In this document: piece by piece, positions 28,206 to 39,188 of the stretch
Layout: each line of letters starts with the position of its first letter
How positions within the stretch are numbered: position 1 is the first letter of the stretch
Assembly: GCA_030390025.1 (NCBI GenBank)
Contig: CM059431.1
Span: 119,166,001-119,230,000, forward strand
Source: Squalus acanthias
Lineage: Eukaryota
Reading direction: 5' to 3'
DNA length: 64,000 nucleotides
Program-made: the position numbers and the translations under genes
Notes under the pieces: model-generated
The model's database searches: none
What the model saw: only the letters and a program-made list of their open reading frames with translations
What the model was told of the DNA's origin: nothing

Positions 28206-28534
28206 GACCTCCAAGTCCTCTTCCACGTGGTACAGGACATAAGCATCACACTCCTCAGTCTTTCTTTCACTAAGCTGGGCACCAACATTAGTCATGCCGC
28301 CTGCAAAGAATTGACACTGGCACTGACTCCCAACTCCTTTCACACTCAGAACTGATGTCTTAATGTCAGGACGACTGATCTACAGTGCAGAAACAAATTA
28401 AAACACTTCATGAGGGCAAGCAAAACTAGCAAGTCTCACTCTGCCTTTCCTCCCTCCCCAACCTGGACACCACCATACTCTTCACCCTATTAAAGCAACA
28501 CTCACACTACTAATCCTTCACATTATACTCTAGG

Positions 28535-28840
28535 CAAAGTAGAGCAGAGAAGGTTGAGAGGAAATTTGATAGAGGTGTTCAAAATCATGAGGGGTCTAGG
28601 CAAGCCGATAGAGAGAAACTGTTCCAGTTGGTGGAAGGGTTGAGAACCAGAGGACACAGATTTAAGGTGATGATTGGCAGAAGAACCAAAGGCGACATGA
28701 GGAAAAACTGTTTTACACAGCGAGTGATTAGGATCTGGAATGCACTGCCTGAAAGGGTGGTGGAAGCAGATTCAATCGTGGCTTTCAAAAGGGGAATTGG
28801 AAAAGTACCTGAAGGAAAAAAAATTGCAGGGCTACGGGGT
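28535..28840 (+). mobile_element. CR1 LINE 3' fragment
   Basis: RTRGHRFKV...KNCFTQRVIRIWNALPE. Confidence 0.85.
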
Positions 28841-28844
28841 GCAC

Positions 28845-29380
28845 TTGATCAGTCGATGAAGACGTCCTGCAGAATCTGACATCTGATGTCCCTTGCGGCA
28901 GCGACTGCGGTCACAACCTGAGTAGCATTGCAGATGAACTGGATGTCCTGGTAATGGAATTTCTGTCTACTCACATACATCGGCGGCTGCTCAGTTGGTA
29001 CCTTCATTGCCACATGAGTGCCGTTGTGGCACCCTGCACCCTGGGGAACTCAGTTCTCCTGTAGAAGTCCCTGGCTCTGTGCCTCTGCAGCCTAGGAGTG
29101 ATGCACGTGTCGAAGAATTCAGCTGCTTTATGAAAGAGGGCAGCCTTGACAGCTCTTTGGCTAATGTTGCACAGATGCCTTGTGGCAGGCTGGAAGGATG
29201 CAAAGCTGTAAAAGTTGAGGGCTGCAGTCACTTTAATTGCCACGGACAAAGCAGTTGTGATAGTGCAATGAGTGCAAAGATTTTCATGATGAAGTTGACA
29301 GAGATGCTCAATGGCATCCTTGGATGTGTTGTGAAAGGGCCAGTGTGGCCTTACACATGCTAGGAAGGGGAACACCTAGT
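28845..29380 (-). pseudogene. Harbinger (HARBI1-like) transposase remnant
   Basis: ALSVAIKVTAALNFY..ASFQ...LCNISQ matches [24 protein letters not shown] of the copy at 51.6 kb. Confidence 0.7.
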
Positions 29381-30496: not shown

Positions 30497-31865
30497 TGTT
30501 ACAATAAATGAAGAATAGCAATTGTAGGCCCCAGGCCGATGAGATCTTGCTGAGCTAGTTAGGTTGTTTAGGCTAGTGTGCTTTTTGCTTAGGGTGGAAA
30601 ATTAGCAGGTGGCTGTGACAAGTTAATAAGCCTGATGGTCATCAATCTGCAGGGTTGGCCAGGCCAGAGAAGCTAATGTGTTTTTTTAAATTACAAAAAC
30701 ATTTCTATGTCACGTCTCAATGTATACTTTTAAATAACATATCTCTTGAGCAACGTCTAGCTGTGCAGTTTTGATAGCAAGTGTCCCTGCACCGCTTGAA
30801 CCTTATTGTGGTGAAAAGTGAATATGTAACCATGATACCCTGGTGGGCTTGCTGAACAAAAGGAAAGTGGTAGCTATATTTAACATGAGAGTTCAAAGGT
30901 TCGAGGTACAGTCATTTCATGGTCACTATTGTGCAAAGGCGGCTGTTTGATTTGTGTAAACAAATTACCTATATAAGGTGCACATAACCACCCGATTGTT
31001 AGAACGGGCTTAAGAGACGACTGCGCAGTGAAGCCATTGTATCTTGATTACTGGAGTGGTAGCTATAACCTTTTACTTTGTATTTTGTAGTGCTACTCTG
31101 TATTTTATAGGGCTATTAATAAAATATATTAAAGGCAATTGATGCTGTGAGCTTGTTTATCTAGTGTTCATAACCTCAAGACTCTTAGGGGGAAAAATTG
31201 GGTGGTGCCCATTTTGGGGCGCTAACGTTGCTGGGTCGCTAATTATAGCGCCCCGAAAAAGTTAGCGCCCCTCTGCTGTAAATTCAGTAGTAGCACCCCA
31301 AGCAGAAGGTGGGGCGCTACTGGAAAGCGTTCCACGTCCTGCTTGGGGCGCTACTACTGAATTTCACGGCGCTACGTGCAGAGGCGCCACGCACGGCGGC
31401 ACATAGCGTCGTGTCATTATGGGCCTCTTCCCCTGATTAAAGGGGAGGGGCCTAGCGCTGCGCGCACTGGGGCCCTACCGGACCACCGGAGAGCGGGGTG
31501 CCGTGAAAACAGCCCGGCACTCAAGAGGCGTGCCGGGCTGAGCGATGGCGGCCGGCACCCAGCATAAAAAAGTGAAAGGGGGCAGGTGCTGGCAGTTGGC
31601 TAAAATAAAAAAGGCCGCCCGACACCCGCCCTTTAAGTAGCGCCGCCACGGCTGCAAAAACGTCCAGCGATAGGTCAGAGGACGTAAGGGAAGTTTGCGG
31701 CTGGGGCGCAAGTGGGGCGCTGCACACAGCGATGACGTCATCGCCACCGGCGCAGCGGCATGGGGCGCTACCAGCTACCGCCGTCACTAAGCTCCCACTA
31801 AATTTCGGCGGGGCGCTAACGAGAGGCGCAAACCAAACCAATTTTCCCCCTTATTATTAGCGTCA
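30497..31865 (+). mobile_element. Possible LTR upstream of the Gag element (interrupted by a MITE)
   Basis: TG start, TATATAA at ~30970, AATAAA at ~31118, ...CGTCA-A-TGG after removing the MITE; no recognisable PBS or 3' partner. Confidence 0.3.
31188..31850. mobile_element. Harbinger-type MITE
   Basis: TIR GGGGGAAAA(A)TTGG; canonical TTA TSD; repeated GGGGCGCTA motifs in both orientations. Confidence 0.88.
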
Positions 31866-32513
31866 ATGGTAATAAATAGTAAGCTGTTTAATTTGGTATT
31901 TATCCAAAATATAAACAAAAATAAATAAGTTGTAAGTGCTTTCAGGATGGAACTTTTAACTTTGGTAGGGGCACAAAACAAGTGCTGTCAGATTGGCCGC
32001 CCGTTATATACCCCACCCCATTTTCCTTTACATTTGCTTCAATGGCGGCCAATCTGATATTGTTTGTGTTACACCCCCTACCAAAGCTGAAAGTGCTTGT
32101 GCTTGTGTAAAATTCGCAATTATCGCGATTCGAAATAACGAGATAAAGCAGATTTGTTTCATCAGTTTTATTTAAACGAAATGCTGTCATGATTAAACAG
32201 GACACAGAAGCCTGTAAAATGGCCGCCGAGCATCGTGGCAGAAGCTTCCAGAATACAGTGGGCAGACAAGATGGCGTTCGAATAAACATTTCAGTATAAG
32301 ATTGGATAATACACAGCCAACACTGATAAAGACAGGATGCAACCTGTCTGCATTCGACACAATAGCAAAGATATAAGTGCTGGAATCATTTTCCATGCAC
32401 AAGTAAGGACCATTGTAATGGGCAATCGAAGGCCCATCCAGACACAGCAATACACATATCAGTATTCGAGGAGGCCCCAAAACCAGTCAGGGAGACTCCT
32501 AGCTGGTTCGACA

Positions 32514-34396
32514 ATGGGGAAAACATTAACGGATAGTTGGCCAGTTTCAGGTGCTACCAATACCCATTAAAGGAAAGAATCGCCCCATGCTGGGAGTTTT
32601 GTGCACCAGAGCAAGCAATAGTATTAGGCAACGAGAGTAATGTTTTAGACCCTGGTGTGAATGGGCGAAATGTGATGGATGAGAGGATAGCCGACTATGT
32701 GTTTGGGAAGGTTAACTTAACCAAAAGGTGGATAAGTGACCTGCTGATGGATAAGCGTCCGCTAGACGCCGCCATCAAATGGACAGGCAGTAAAGAACAT
32801 AAGAAGTCGGTAGAGAAAGCGGTCTGGCTGAGGTGCTACAAGAAGCAAGTCCAACTTTCGGACCAGGCCATTGCAGCACAGGCAGCTCAGATCAGGGAAT
32901 TGGGAGTTGAGATGGAGGAAAAGGTCACGGGAGGACAGAAACTCATTGCATCCTTGAATGCTTTACATCAGGAACGCCAGATAGTAGCCAACCACCATGA
33001 GACTAAAATTGATTACCTAGAGTGTCAGGTCACGGAATCAAAGTTAAACGAGGGTAGGATTAGAGAACGGTGTATCCGCCTAGCTAACCAGATAAAAGCC
33101 CAAGAAGAAAGCTTGCTGGGAGTTAGGGCGGCATACAAGATGGCCCTCGAGGATAGGCATGAGGGAGCTGACCACAGTGTTTGCCAGAAGGAGATAGGGA
33201 ACCTAAGAGAGGCCCTGAATAAGGCAAACGGCATGGTGTGCCTCATCAGCCCGTCAGCACACCAGCCACAGGTGAGTAGGTAATTCCCAAAATCCCTACC
33301 AGACAAAGCAGAGGAGGTATTTGCCACTGCACCCTCCGCGCCACCCAGCTATTCGGCAACCTGGGTAAGGAAGGAAGTGGTGGAAATAGAAGAGGAGGTC
33401 CCCGAGGTAGGACAATCCCCAGAGGTAGTGTCAAAGCCGGGACCGTTGTGTCCGCTCACAGGTCACAAGAGGGGCCCAAACGGAGCCAATGGGGAGGACG
33501 GGGATGTCCTGAACCAGCTTGTGTTGCCTCACAGCTCACACCAGTTGAGAGCGATGATTAGTCATGTACGGAAGCTGTCTGAGTCAGACGACCCTTCCGT
33601 ACACTTCAGGGAGGTAGAACAGACCGCAGCAATTAATGGCTGCGACGATGTGGAAAAGACTAAAATGTTGCTGTTCTCGTTAGATAGCTCGATCCTTCAG
33701 TGTCTCTCAGACGAGAGCAAGAGGGGAAATAATACCTATGAGGAGTTAAGGGACGAGGTCCTAGAAGTGTTGGGGGCGGATGACGAAGGTCCGTTCGTTA
33801 GATTGGGTCAGACAGTTGAGATGGAGGGAGAACCCCCGAAGGTTTTCGCCGACAGGCTGTGGCCAGTATACTAGCGTAGCTGCCCAGGCGCGCCAGCGCG
33901 CGACGATCTGGATGGTGTCGGTTTAACTCATTGGCTCAGGTGTTTTGTAGCCAACAGTTTGCCAGCCATCAGGGAGCAGGCCAAAGCGTGGCTTGATCCC
34001 ACTAACCCCGCCACAACAGAGGAGTCGGTCCTAAATCGACTCACCATAGGGTATCGGAACACTAGGAGCATGGGAGCGCGTCCCCTTAAGGTGCATGAGG
34101 CACGGCCCGCAGCCCCGGCTCAAAAGGAGTGGCATCAGGAGGGAAACCGCGCCCCACAGGCCAGTGGTGCTTGTTACGGGTGCGGAAAGACAGGTCACTG
34201 GCGTAAAAACTGCAGGAATCCCTGGAAGGATTCCAGGGAAAAAGCTCCCGCAGTCCGAACCCAAGCGCCTGTCTCTGAGAAAGGAGCTGGTGTGCCTATC
34301 CATCCCGATGCGATAGAATCAATGTTGGGAGCCATGCGGTCTCTTATGATTTCGCACGGGGAGGTAGCAACAGCCCCATACAACCCAGACTTCTGA
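32514..34396 (+). pseudogene. gag: Gag polyprotein pseudogene (coiled coil, PSAPPSY late domain, capsid-like region, CCHC knuckle)
   Basis: ORFs 32537, 33377 and 33959 share one frame, separated by single stops (33281, 33872); CYGCGKTGHWRKNC at 34172-34213; ATG 32514 joins via a 1-nt frameshift. Confidence 0.8.
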
Positions 34397-35290
34397 CTGG
34401 AACCGGTGCAGCCTGCCTACCTGTGTCCCCTTGAAAGACGCGCACAGGAGGGGGTCTCCTGTAAGGAGGCCAGGTTAAAAGAGCAGGCCTTACGGGAGGA
34501 GAACGCCCGCTTAATGGGGAAAATAGATGGGCTGGAAGGGCAGCTTAGAGCCATGGTAGCAGAGTTGCCCAAACTAAAACAGGATAGAAATCTGCAGCCT
34601 CCAGCAGGTGAGATTTCACAGAAACAAGCAGGGGTGGTGGCCTGTCTTAGGGGAGGGGCCAGACCTGCGAGTGGGGACTCTCAGCCCCAAGCAGGACAGC
34701 AGGGCACACAGACCGGTAAAGCAGCCTGCGTGAGGGGAGAGGACATTCTAGGAAAGTGTAAGATCTTTTCTTGGGGTTGGGATTCCGATGAGGGAGAGCT
34801 CGAGGAGCTCGACCAAGATAGTGACCCGATCGGAGAGGTGCTGAGATCGGAGGACGAAAGGTTCGTCCTCGACTCAAGCTTAGGGGAGATAGGGATTGCG
34901 AGTGGAGATCCACACAGGGTGGAATCAGAAACTGCAGGTCCCGAGCCCAGGGGGGCGGAGCTAGGGGAGACGGAGCCAGCGGCTGTGGTAGGACCACAGG
35001 TCGTGACGGTGGAAGTCTCGGAACCCGGTCCGTCAGCCCTGGAAGTCTTGCCCTTGGGGGAGGTAGGGATTGCGAGTGGAGGACCACATACTGGGCCAAG
35101 TAGGGTGGTACCAGAAACTGCAAATCCCGAGTTCAGGGAGGCGGAGCCAGGGGAGACGGAGCCAGCGGCTGTGGTAGGACCACAGGCCGTGACGGTGGAA
35201 GTCTCGGTACCCGGTCCGTCGGCCCTGGAAACCTTGTCCAATGTAGCCCTCCGTAGGTCAGTTCGGACACCCCAGCCCAGGAAGGCGTAG
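34397..35290 (+). CDS. ORF in frame with gag: coiled coil, acidic/Pro-rich duplicated segment, integrase-tail-like LRRSVR end
   Basis: 294-aa ORF directly after TGA 34394; no protease DTG/DSG, RT YxDD or integrase core seen. Confidence 0.5.
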   Translation: MEPVQPAYLCPLERRAQEGVSCKEARLKEQALREENARLMGKIDGLEGQLRAMVAELPKLKQDRNLQPPAGEISQKQAGVVACLRGGARPASGDSQPQAGQQGTQTGKAACVRGEDILGKCKIFSWGWDSDEGELEELDQDSDPIGEVLRSEDERFVLDSSLGEIGIASGDPHRVESETAGPEPRGAELGETEPAAVVGPQVVTVEVSEPGPSALEVLPLGEVGIASGGPHTGPSRVVPETANPEFREAEPGETEPAAVVGPQAVTVEVSVPGPSALETLSNVALRRSVRTPQPRKA

Positions 35291-36389
35291 TCAAGTCCCC
35301 CATACGCCCCCAGGCGTAAGTTCAAGGTCAAGGCAGCCCAGGGAGATCCCAGTCCCAGCGCAGCAGCGACAGGCTGCGGCAGATCAAAGGAAGGGGTCAG
35401 GAGAGAAGGTGGTAGGTGTGATAGAAGAGTGAACAATTGTGACTTTCTTTTCTTTCCTTCCTAATCTACTTATTTTAAATTATATTTATTTATATTTAAA
35501 TGGTGTCCACGAGTTAAAGGACACAAAATTTAGACTAACCTTAAGGTATAGCTTTAAACTATATTGTTTTACGATCACTGACTAAGGCAGTTCTCCTAAC
35601 AGAATAAAGTACAAGAAATTATTCCAGTTTCCCACACAGTAATAAATTATAAAAAATAGAGATCACTGTATAGCAAAATGCCCCTATTACAAATAACATA
35701 ATAAATAGTAACCTTCCATATTCCTCTATTTGATAGGTATATTTACCTTGAGTTACAGAGAGGCACAATGTATGTATACAATTACAAAAATATGTAGATG
35801 GATAGATGGACAGATTGATAGATAGACGGACAGAGAATTAGAAATGCACCTTATCCCCAGCATGGCAACCTGGTACTGTGTTGCACTGCCACTCACCTTT
35901 GACTGAGTAACTTTCCAATTACTTGCTGACCCTTGGCCTTCTCTTTTTTCAGGTTCATCTCATGACTCAAGCCATGCTGCACAAGAGATGGAGGGAGACC
36001 AGCCTTGTCGAAAGTGCACCATCACTCGCTCCATCCTTACCAAGCACCAGCACAGAAATCTGCACACCAGATAAGATCGAGTCAGAGGGGTCTACACAAA
36101 ATGTATCACTCAACACTAGTGAGCAGCAGCTGCAATAGTGGAAAGTACAGATGGGAGACAATTAAGTGAGGGCAAGCTTGGACAGAGATGCAGACTTCAA
36201 CAGCTCAACCTTTGAAGGAGAGATCTTCTATGTGCACCAGAAATTTCTTGAGGTATCGGGCTGCCTGCCTAAGACCTGCTGAAACATGTCTGACATTATG
36301 AAGGATTCCGGTTCTAGCTTGTGTGTTGTACTGGCACAAGGTCTCGACACTCTATAGTCTGCCATGGAGTGTATGCATAAATAAAAAAA

Positions 36390-37084: not shown

Positions 37085-37975
37085 TAGCAGATAAAGAGAG
37101 AAGAAATGAAATAAAGGCAACAGGAAGAAGGTGATAAAATATAGGAAGACATTAATAAGCTTGCAGAATGGGCGTGTAAATGGCAAATGAATTTCAATAT
37201 AGATAAGTGTGAGGTGGTGGATTTTGGTGGGTAGAATAAGGAGGCCACATACTGCTTGGATAATAAGAGGCTGAATGGCCTAGAGGAGCAAAGGGGTACA
37301 GATACACAAATCACTAAAAGTAGTGACGAAGGTTAATAAGGCCATAAAAAATGCAAACCAAGTACTGGGGTTCATTTCTAGAAGGATAGAACTGAAAATC
37401 AAAGAAGTTATGTTAAACTTGTATTGAACCTTGGTTAGACCACACTTGGGGGACTGTGTACAGTTCTGGTCACCATATTATAAAAAGGATATAGAGGCAT
37501 TGAGGAAGGTGAAAAAAAAGATTCACAAGGATGATACCAGAACTGAGAGGATATACTTATCAGGAAAGTTTGAACAGGATGGGCCTCTTTTCTCCAGAAA
37601 AGGGAAGGGTGAGGGGTGACCTGATAGAGGTCTTTAAGATAATGAAAGGGTTTGATAGGGTAGATGTAAAGAAAATGTTTCCACTTGTGGGGGAGTCCAA
37701 AACTAGAGGTCATAAGTATAAGATAGTCACTAATAAAGCCAATAGGGAATTCAGGAGAAACTTCTTTCCCCAAAGAGTGGTAAGAATGTGGAATGTGCTA
37801 CTACAGGGAATAGTTGAGGCAAATAGCATAGATGCAATTAAGGGGAAGCTAGGTAAGCACGTGAGGGAGAAAGAAACAGCTGATAGGGTTAGATGAAGTA
37901 GGGTGGAAGGAGACTCCTGTGGAGCATAAACACCAGCATAGACCAGTTGGGCTGAATGGCCTGTTTCTGTGCTGA
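37085..37975 (+). mobile_element. CR1 LINE 3' fragment
   Basis: VRPHLGDCVQFWSPY; RGDLIEVFKIMKGFD; FFPQRVVRMWNVL. Confidence 0.9.
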
Positions 37976-38364
37976 CCCTCAATCTAACTCAATGTAAGGC
38001 ACAGTGAGCTGAAAGCTGGATACTTAATATTTCTTTTGACATTTGTTAACACGATTAAACTGCGACATGTCTTCATTTGATGTTGTCTGCCGAGTGTTTC
38101 TGTAGTAGCTGTGGATTGCGGCATGTATATGAATGATGGTCAATGAGACAGCAGTTCTTCATTGGAGGGTAGATAGACTAGCATGACCTTCTGGTCAGGA
38201 AGTGGATGATATGGTGGGAGTTGGGAGAAGGAGCAATGGAGGTTACTGAATTGCTGGTGTACAGCTCTGGCTGCAGATTGATGTTGCTGACAGCCTTCTG
38301 CTGCTGCATCCTCCAGCTCATCAGTTTTCTTATTTTGATGTTGTGAATGATCTTCTTCATCTGT

Positions 38365-39188
38365 GGGAAAATGTGAGGTTATCCACTTTGGTAGGAAGAA
38401 TAGAAAAGCAAAATATTATTTAAATGGAGAGAGACTACAGATTGCTGCGGTACAGAAGGATTTGGGTGTCCTCGTACACGAAACACAAAAAGTTAGCATG
38501 CAGGTACAGCAAGTAATTAGGAAGGCAAATGGAATGTTGGCCTTTATTGCAAGGGGGATTGAGTATAAAAGTAGGGAAGTCTTGCTAGAACTGTACAGGG
38601 CATTGGTGAGACCACACCTAGAGTACTGCGTACAGTTTTGGTCATCTTATTTAAGGAGGGATATACTTGCATTGGCGGGTGTTCAGCGAAGGTTCACTAG
38701 GTTGATTCCTGAGATGAAAGGGTTGTCTTATGAGGAAAGGTTGAGCAGGTTGGGCCTATACTCATTGGCGTTTAGAAGAATGAGAGGTGATCTTATTGAA
38801 ACATATAATATTCTGAGGGGGGCTTGACAGGGTAGATGCAGAGAGGATGTTTCCCCTTGTGGGGGAATCTAGAACTAGGGGGCATAGTTTAAGGATAAGG
38901 CATCGCCCATTTTAGATGGAGATGAGGAGGAATTTCTTCTCTCAGAGGGTTGTGAATCTTTCGAATTCTCTACCCCAGAGAGCTGTGGAGGCTGAGTCAG
39001 TGAATATATTCAAGGCGGAGATAGACAGATTTTTGAAAAACAGGAGAATCAAGGATTATGGGGAGCGGGCAGGAAAGTGGAGTTGAGGCCAAGATCAGAT
39101 CAGCCATGATCTTATTAAATGGAGGAGCAGGCTCGAGGGACCAAATGGCCTACTCCTGCTCCTATTTCTTATGTTCATATGTTCTTAT
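38365..39188 (+). mobile_element. CR1 LINE 3' fragment
   Basis: KCEVIHFGRKN...LYRALVRPHLEYCVQFWS; tail present. Confidence 0.92.

What the first reader, a model, noticed from the sequence alone, without database searches (positions are those of the whole stretch)
34394..35290. In-frame UGA-C after gag leads into a non-enzymatic ORF instead of pol
Seen: TGA CTG about 60 codons after the knuckle, then ~297 open codons in the same frame. These contain a coiled coil, an acidic WGWDSDEGELEE patch and a terminal LRRSVR..PRK, with no PR/RT/RH/IN motifs and no 3' LTR match. Established: UGA followed by C is a leaky context, and LRRSxR occurs in Gypsy integrase tails. Inference: a Gag-only non-autonomous element that kept the readthrough junction but replaced pol, relying on a helper.
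Basis: partly seen in the sequence, partly recalled or inferred. Interest (0 to 1): 0.7.

Follow-up and report, generated by a model that had tools for sequence, protein, structure and literature searches.

The report
Shark retroelement with gutted pol gene
This is a decayed copy of an abundant retrovirus-like element found in several genomes, likely of sharks: its gag gene ends in a conserved, probably leaky stop codon, and the reading frame behind it is mostly the leftover tail of a pol gene whose enzymes were deleted, so the family likely spread with a helper's enzymes.

Summary
The TGA at 34394 and the 297 open codons behind it are real. The TGA is the family's own gag stop. Related Gags end 58-68 residues after the knuckle (60 here). 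No other letter reaches 20% at 34394-34404 in four runs, and distant copies keep it in the UGA-CUA-G leaky context. The downstream ORF did not replace pol. Its last 211 codons match the tail behind the integrase SH3 domain of a relative (P0022, E 1e-19), which links to a shark RNase H-integrase protein (P0044). The ORF is an 86-codon coiled-coil stub joined in frame at about 34654 to that tail. Contigs of three organisms carry the same join, and integrase-bearing kin enter there too. So it is an amplified, internally deleted, non-autonomous LTR family. Length changes mostly keep frame, but substitutions show no amino-acid constraint (2 of 13 synonymous). Readthrough is inferred, not measured. 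Closest analogues: mouse IAP IΔ1 and zebrafish BHIKHARI. Lokiretrovirus membership is open.

The parts
32104..32514 (+). putative 5' LTR and leader (starts TGT; AATAAA at 32281); both ends approximate, primer-binding site not identified
   Evidence: repeat depth rises near 32100-32170 and the unique flank contig ends at 32131; sequence; LTR identity is inferred, since there is no second copy to compare
32675..34396 (+). gag (N-terminal coiled coil, capsid, one CCHC knuckle), broken by in-frame stops at 33281 and 33872; true start may lie slightly upstream
   Evidence: 58% and 46% identity to P0002 (skate) and P0003; model of P0002 has a long helix 68-183 and matches the MLV capsid C-terminal domain at Z 11.8, rmsd 2.8, 86 aligned; zf-CCHC
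34394..34400 (+). gag stop TGA with CTG G behind it: candidate readthrough signal
   Evidence: no variant row at 34394-34404 in a complete 15-row table of four runs; relatives end 58-68 residues after the knuckle
34397..34654 (+). 86-codon stub with a predicted coiled coil; likely the start of the pol frame; origin not shown
   Evidence: weak likeness to Gag segments; no homologue found
34654..34661 (+). deletion junction shared by many copies; possible 8-nt overlap of the two sides
   Evidence: bridging contigs in X6, X13, X18; integrase-side loose ends before 34654 in X1, X13, X18; X13 record 16 leaves after 34661
34655..35395 (+). C-terminal tail of pol behind the integrase SH3 domain; acidic, low-complexity; in-frame 186-nt duplication; TAG at 35288, with likeness to P0022 resuming beyond it
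   Evidence: blastp E 1e-19 and 5e-26; tblastn 34655-35395, E 1e-22; P0022-P0044 78% over 50 aa; Pfam on P0044
35386..35419 (+). polypurine tract (27 of 31 purines) followed by TGT; the 3' LTR expected behind it is missing
   Evidence: unique flank contigs begin at 35394-35395

Best explanation
This is a decayed copy of a multi-copy LTR retroelement family whose pol lacks its enzyme domains: a short stub behind the conserved gag stop is joined in frame to the tail that follows integrase in relatives, most likely through one old internal deletion, and the family likely spread with enzymes from pol-bearing kin. Shown: the stop is kept across copies; the 3' two thirds of the ORF is the pol tail; the join occurs in other copies in three organisms; integrase-bearing sequences enter at the same point. 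Inferred: the parent made Gag-Pol by readthrough of UGA-CUR-G; a template switch at a short overlap (34654-34661) removed PR, RT, RH and IN; master copies supplied their own Gag and borrowed Pol. Readthrough would give a minor Gag-coil-acidic-tail product, most likely a tolerated relic with at most selection on frame. This copy cannot make full Gag (stops at 33281, 33872) and lost its 3' LTR.
For: P0022 matches ORF residues 87-296 (E 1e-19) and begins with a GPY/SH3-type integrase end (SH3_Tf2-1 E 0.0022, below cut-off), 78% identical over 50 aa to P0044, which has RNase_H, Integrase_H2C2 and rve above cut-off; 3 of the 32 pieces shown (508 not shown) bridge 34654 with 31 or more letters on both sides, in X6, X13, X18 (organisms B, A, G), each with 7 other letters; loose ends before 34654 (X1 5 contigs, X13 2, X18 1) mark another upstream sequence, and the single X18 contig agrees by eye with the integrase end of P0022. 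No variant at the stop; single contigs in X6, X13 and X18 keep it with only third-position differences in the next three codons. Summed depth 7,232-152,784 inside the element against 5-17 on the 5' flank in X1 (not a copy number). 20 runs of 9 studies hold part of it.
Against: No intact parent was seen, so that the stub is pol's native start is inferred; it has no homologue. No readthrough data; the window context is CUG-G, not CUA-G; no downstream RNA structure above shuffles (z -0.41, -0.66, +0.17). The 8-nt overlap rests on one contig whose onward letters I could not see. The tail homology rests on one protein (P0022) plus short contig ends. Variants under 20% are not listed.
Confidence: 0.78

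Rival explanations
1. The deleted family keeps the readthrough product under selection: a minor Gag-coiled-coil-acidic-tail protein acts in cis (assembly with helper Gag-Pol, or tethering its own RNA), as the IAP IΔ1 fusion does, or open translation protects the RNA from decay.
For: Length changes behind the stop are in frame: +3 at 34623, a 69-nt step back at 34548-34481, the 186-nt duplication, the join itself, and about +24 at 34551-34574 (by-eye estimate from two loose ends). The stop context is kept across subfamilies. The stub scores on a Gag profile (8.7 bits; 0 of 1000 shuffles and 3 of 1000 block shuffles reach it). Precedent in PMC6466679 (passage).
Against: Only 2 of 13 variant sites at 34397-34705 are synonymous (codon positions 4/6/3), though many are private to this copy. 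The two halves of the duplication differ in 10 non-synonymous and 1 synonymous codons. One X11 contig has a 1-nt loss at 34866. Some in-frame changes may predate the deletion, when the frame was pol.
Confidence: 0.27
2. One reading: pol was replaced by an unrelated non-enzymatic accessory ORF.
For: No enzyme motif; the first 86 codons have no known homologue and could be foreign or a duplicated piece of gag (LCPL and QLRAM recur; blastp E 0.005).
Against: 211 of 297 codons align with a sequence that directly follows an integrase SH3 domain.
Confidence: 0.07
3. The TGA is an ordinary hard stop or a decay mutation, and the open frame behind it is an untranslated leftover.
For: This copy has two other decay stops in gag; no stimulatory structure; no amino-acid constraint seen. 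An open 297-codon frame survives 3-5% neutral change with probability 0.31-0.14.
Against: Decay is excluded by position and conservation. A hard stop is not excluded, but frame continuity from gag into the pol tail and third-position-only differences right behind the stop favour translation in the parent.
Confidence: 0.15

Closest known systems
Mouse IAP IΔ1 subtype (PMC6466679, passage)
   Same: Non-autonomous, amplified, internal deletion that leaves one open gag-pol fusion frame; needs a helper in trans.
   Different: IΔ1 deletes part of gag too and has no stop between the parts; it is a mouse IAP element; its fusion was shown to act in cis. Here gag is whole, the fusion would need readthrough, and no function is shown.
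Zebrafish BHIKHARI Bik-1/Bik-2 (bioRxiv 10.1101/2024.03.25.586437, PMC12067270; passages)
   Same: About 600-aa Gag with N-terminal coiled coil and capsid; no enzymes; multi-copy; depends on a partner.
   Different: Bik-1 has one ORF, no pol components and a glycine-rich C-terminal patch; this Gag has a CCHC knuckle and keeps pol ends in frame. Sequence kinship to Bik was not tested.
Lokiretroviruses (PMC7947760; passages, section 5, part of the supplement)
   Same: The relative P0044 has a retroviral-type RNase H directly before integrase and is named NYNRIN-like; the paper places loki IN next to CGIN1 (that NYNRIN is CGIN1 is recalled).
   Different: No RT, tether or env in hand; five cartilaginous fish genomes were in that screen and none is starred (I read the star as marking presence).
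Type II (UGA-CUA) readthrough of alphaviruses and UGA-CUAG vertebrate genes; gag-pro readthrough of gamma- and epsilonretroviruses (PMC13517186; passages)
   Same: In-frame stop after the knuckle with pol in the same frame; distant copies carry UGA-CUA-G.
   Different: The retroviruses in the passages I saw use UAG, or UGA followed by AGA, CGA or AGU. The window copy has CUG-G and no detectable downstream structure.

Membership tests
LTR retroelement (Ortervirales-type) | Gag with capsid fold and CCHC knuckle | tested here: met
   Relative P0002: MLV CA C-terminal domain Z 11.8, rmsd 2.8, 86 aligned; Foldseek top rows all capsids but E>=0.05; zf-CCHC
LTR retroelement (Ortervirales-type) | Two LTRs, PBS, PPT | tested here: inconclusive
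   PPT plus TGT at 35386-35419; no second LTR in this copy; PBS not identified
Non-autonomous internal-deletion derivative (IΔ1-like) | Ends of pol joined, enzymes absent | tested here: met
   Tail homology and no RH/IN match; stub as the pol start is inferred
Non-autonomous internal-deletion derivative (IΔ1-like) | Same junction in many copies | tested here: met
   Bridging contigs in X6, X13, X18
Non-autonomous internal-deletion derivative (IΔ1-like) | Fusion protein acts in cis | not testable with these tools
   Needs expression and mobility data
Lokiretrovirus | RT groups with loki, sister to retroviruses; tether plus RH | not testable with these tools
   No RT or tether sequence of the family was retrieved
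Lokiretrovirus | Retroviral-type RNase H before IN; IN near CGIN1 | tested here: inconclusive
   P0044: PF00075 E 7e-14 before IN; best solved match foamy virus IN, E 8e-34; likeness to loki IN passages by eye only; no tree built
Lokiretrovirus | Paramyxovirus-F-like env | tested here: inconclusive
   None in this copy: the PPT follows the pol tail directly; the parent was not seen
BHIKHARI | Single gag ORF without pol components | tested here: not met
   Pol tail retained in frame
BHIKHARI | Gag sequence kinship to Bik-1/2 | not tested
   No Bik sequence was in hand; none of the named hits is from a ray-finned fish
Fish foamy-like ERV | Gag lacks Cys-His boxes (PMC5210030, passage) | tested here: not met
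   CCHC knuckle present
Type II readthrough signal | UGA-CUA or UGA-CGG | tested here: inconclusive
   Window has UGA-CUG-G; single contigs of distant copies have UGA-CUA-G
Type II readthrough signal | Measured readthrough | not testable with these tools
   Reporter or ribosome profiling needed

The most novel reading that the evidence does not exclude
Cartilaginous fishes carry an undescribed loki-like lineage that makes Gag-Pol by UGA-CUAG readthrough, and its abundant helper-dependent offshoot is selected to keep making a readthrough Gag with a second Gag-like coil and an acidic tail, which lets it co-assemble with or out-compete the helper's particles.
Probability: 0.22. Interest if true: 0.75.

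Novelty: new variant of a known kind. Interest (0 to 1): 0.45.

Why it matters
Internally deleted, helper-dependent LTR elements are common, so the core finding is ordinary. Three points lift it. First, the family is abundant and shared by several organisms, yet its named Gags are all 'uncharacterized', and I found no description in eight literature searches (open-licence papers only; Repbase and Dfam were not searchable). Second, a UGA-CUA-G gag-pol junction is not among the retroviral signals in the review passages I saw, and it is easy to test. Third, the Pol relative looks loki-like, a group not reported from the five cartilaginous fish genomes screened. Intact Gags in a skate also raise the co-option question shown for BHIKHARI.

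Tried and rejected
No whole genome is held, so copies could not be aligned and no true dN/dS was computed. The downstream ORF alone found no homologue among proteins of 163-520 aa; P0022 came from the full HMMER search. No related locus in viral, metagenome (two scans) or prokaryote contigs. No tRNA gene in the window. Atlas: nothing useful for the Gag N-terminus; retrotransposon Gag clusters for P0002. PDB sequence search with P0022 gave only chance hits. Foldseek gave no match at E<=0.001. No RNA holder is listed as such; X13 is only guessed to be RNA, so nothing is claimed on expression. No DNA-level match between stub and gag (best E 0.085). The minus-strand 259-codon ORF (34681-35460) was set aside as the likely shadow of the GC-rich tail; it was not searched. 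Earlier scan notes: nothing found. Rejected: TGA as a decay mutation; single-copy deletion; foamy-like ERV; plain BHIKHARI. In one search only 40 of 511 variant rows were shown, so whether other copies share the stops at 33281, 33872 and 35288 was not seen directly; that the first two are decay rests on open relatives. Supplements of the bioRxiv paper are closed, and the loki supplement was cut at 300 of 318 pages; either may bear on membership.

Full report
Observation. The frame 32537-35290 runs through gag, a TGA at 34394 and 297 further codons. The open stretch is not chance (about 1e-5; 0 of 5000 simulations). Related Gags run through both places, so this copy is decayed. The host is likely a cartilaginous fish: nearly all named relatives are from a skate and several sharks, one distant one from Xenopus. 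No genome is held.

The gag. The closest proteins are P0002 (Rhinoraja longicauda, 58%) and P0003 (46%); the full HMMER search gave 30 hits. A model of P0002 (mean pLDDT 57) has a long N-terminal helix and a C-terminal capsid domain matching MLV at Z 11.8, rmsd 2.8, 86 aligned. The six closest full-length relatives end 58-68 residues after the knuckle, the window 60 (three distant ones end at 39, 47 and 64). The TGA is therefore the normal end of gag.

Conservation of the stop. Twenty runs of nine studies and eight organism labels hold parts of the element. Summed contig depth is thousands of times higher from about 32100 to 35420 than on the flanks (the tool warns this is no copy number). On 34355-34705 the variant table for X1, X6, X13 and X18 was complete at the 20% threshold (15 rows) and has no row at 34394-34404. 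Two of the 32 pieces shown bridge the stop by the strict rule, both in X13. Single contigs of X6, X13 and X18 from a more distant subfamily keep the stop; the next three codons differ from the window only at third positions, giving UGA-CUA-G. That motif supports readthrough in alphaviruses and human genes (PMC13517186, passages). The window has CUG-G and no stable structure downstream. Readthrough is inferred.

What the downstream ORF is. P0022 matches residues 87-296 (E 1e-19) and beyond the TAG at 35288 up to 35395. Its first 50 residues are a GPY/SH3-type integrase end, 78% identical to the end of P0044 from Heptranchias perlo, which carries RNase H, the zinc-binding domain and the integrase core. 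So the acidic patch and the LRRS motif belong to pol's tail. P0044 finds nothing in the window. At 34654, loose ends in X1 (5 contigs), X13 (2) and X18 (1) show copies with another sequence upstream; the single X18 contig agrees by eye with P0022's integrase end. Three contigs (X6, X13, X18) instead bridge the join as the window does, with 7 other letters in 123. Both a pol-bearing form and the deleted form are thus present in these genomes, and the join is shared. One long X13 contig fits the stub side to 34661 and then leaves, which suggests an 8-nt overlap and a template switch (inferred from one record).

The stub. Codons 1-86 have a confident helix and no homologue. They share LCPL and QLRAM with the start of capsid (E 0.005) and score weakly on the Gag coil (8.7 bits; 0 of 1000 shuffles, 3 of 1000 block shuffles). 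It may be the native spacer before protease or a duplicated piece of gag; this is unresolved.

Is the product selected? For: the join and four length changes keep frame (+3, 69, 186 and an estimated 24). Against: one contig has a 1-nt loss; 2 of 13 variant sites behind the stop are synonymous, against 5 of 11 shown in gag (small numbers, many private to this copy, gag rows from a cut table); the duplicated halves differ in 10 non-synonymous and 1 synonymous codons. At most the frame, not the sequence, is kept.

Ends. The repeat likely starts at TGT near 32104. A purine tract (27 of 31) and TGT at 35386-35419 mark where a 3' LTR should begin, but unique sequence follows.

Mechanism. Shown: conserved stop, pol tail, shared join, pol-bearing kin, decay of this copy. 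Inferred: readthrough in the parent, deletion by template switch, spread with own Gag and borrowed Pol. Confidence 0.78. A selected readthrough product has 0.27.

Known systems. It works like IAP IΔ1 (PMC6466679, passage) and resembles BHIKHARI in Gag layout and helper dependence (bioRxiv 10.1101/2024.03.25.586437 and PMC12067270, passages), but it fails BHIKHARI's no-pol feature. Lokiretrovirus kinship is plausible from P0044 but untested without RT; the loki screen lists five cartilaginous fish genomes unstarred (PMC7947760, section 5, passages, supplement part 1 and two supplement searches). Odin and Troyka papers were seen as passages only (PMC9040795, PMC12440569) and added nothing on readthrough. 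Foamy-like ERVs lack the knuckle (PMC5210030, passage). Eight searches listed no description of this family; repeat libraries could not be searched.

Verdict. New variant of a known kind; interest 0.45.

Noticed in passing
window 31188-31850: A separate high-copy repeat with inverted ends and internal palindromes just upstream of the element; looks like a non-autonomous DNA transposon (depth block; palindromes).
   Followed up: partly
window 28514-28879, 37513-37896, 38351-38827 and repeat families D1-D5: Many LINE 3' fragments, by recall of the CR1 type common in cartilaginous fishes.
   Followed up: no
window 35363-35400: Other copies show short step-back joints and a different continuation after 35400, so the 3' region varies by tandem units and subfamily.
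   Followed up: no
P0002, P0005, P0006 (Rhinoraja longicauda): Three full-length open Gags on different contigs, annotated as genes with several isoform accessions: a recently active or co-opted relative in a skate.
   Followed up: no
window 33446-33457 and 34421-34432; 33542-33556 and 34541-34555: LCPL and QLRAM occur once at the start of capsid and once in the stub; VACLRG and AACVRG flank the deletion join. Possibly protease sites or a duplicated gag piece.
   Followed up: partly
window 34681-35460, minus strand: A 259-codon open frame opposite the pol tail.
   Followed up: no
P0017, P0019, P0024, P0028, P0029, P0034: More distant coil-capsid Gags (22-26% identity), most with a knuckle, in catshark, horn shark and Xenopus: a wider uncharacterised Gag group.
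   Followed up: no
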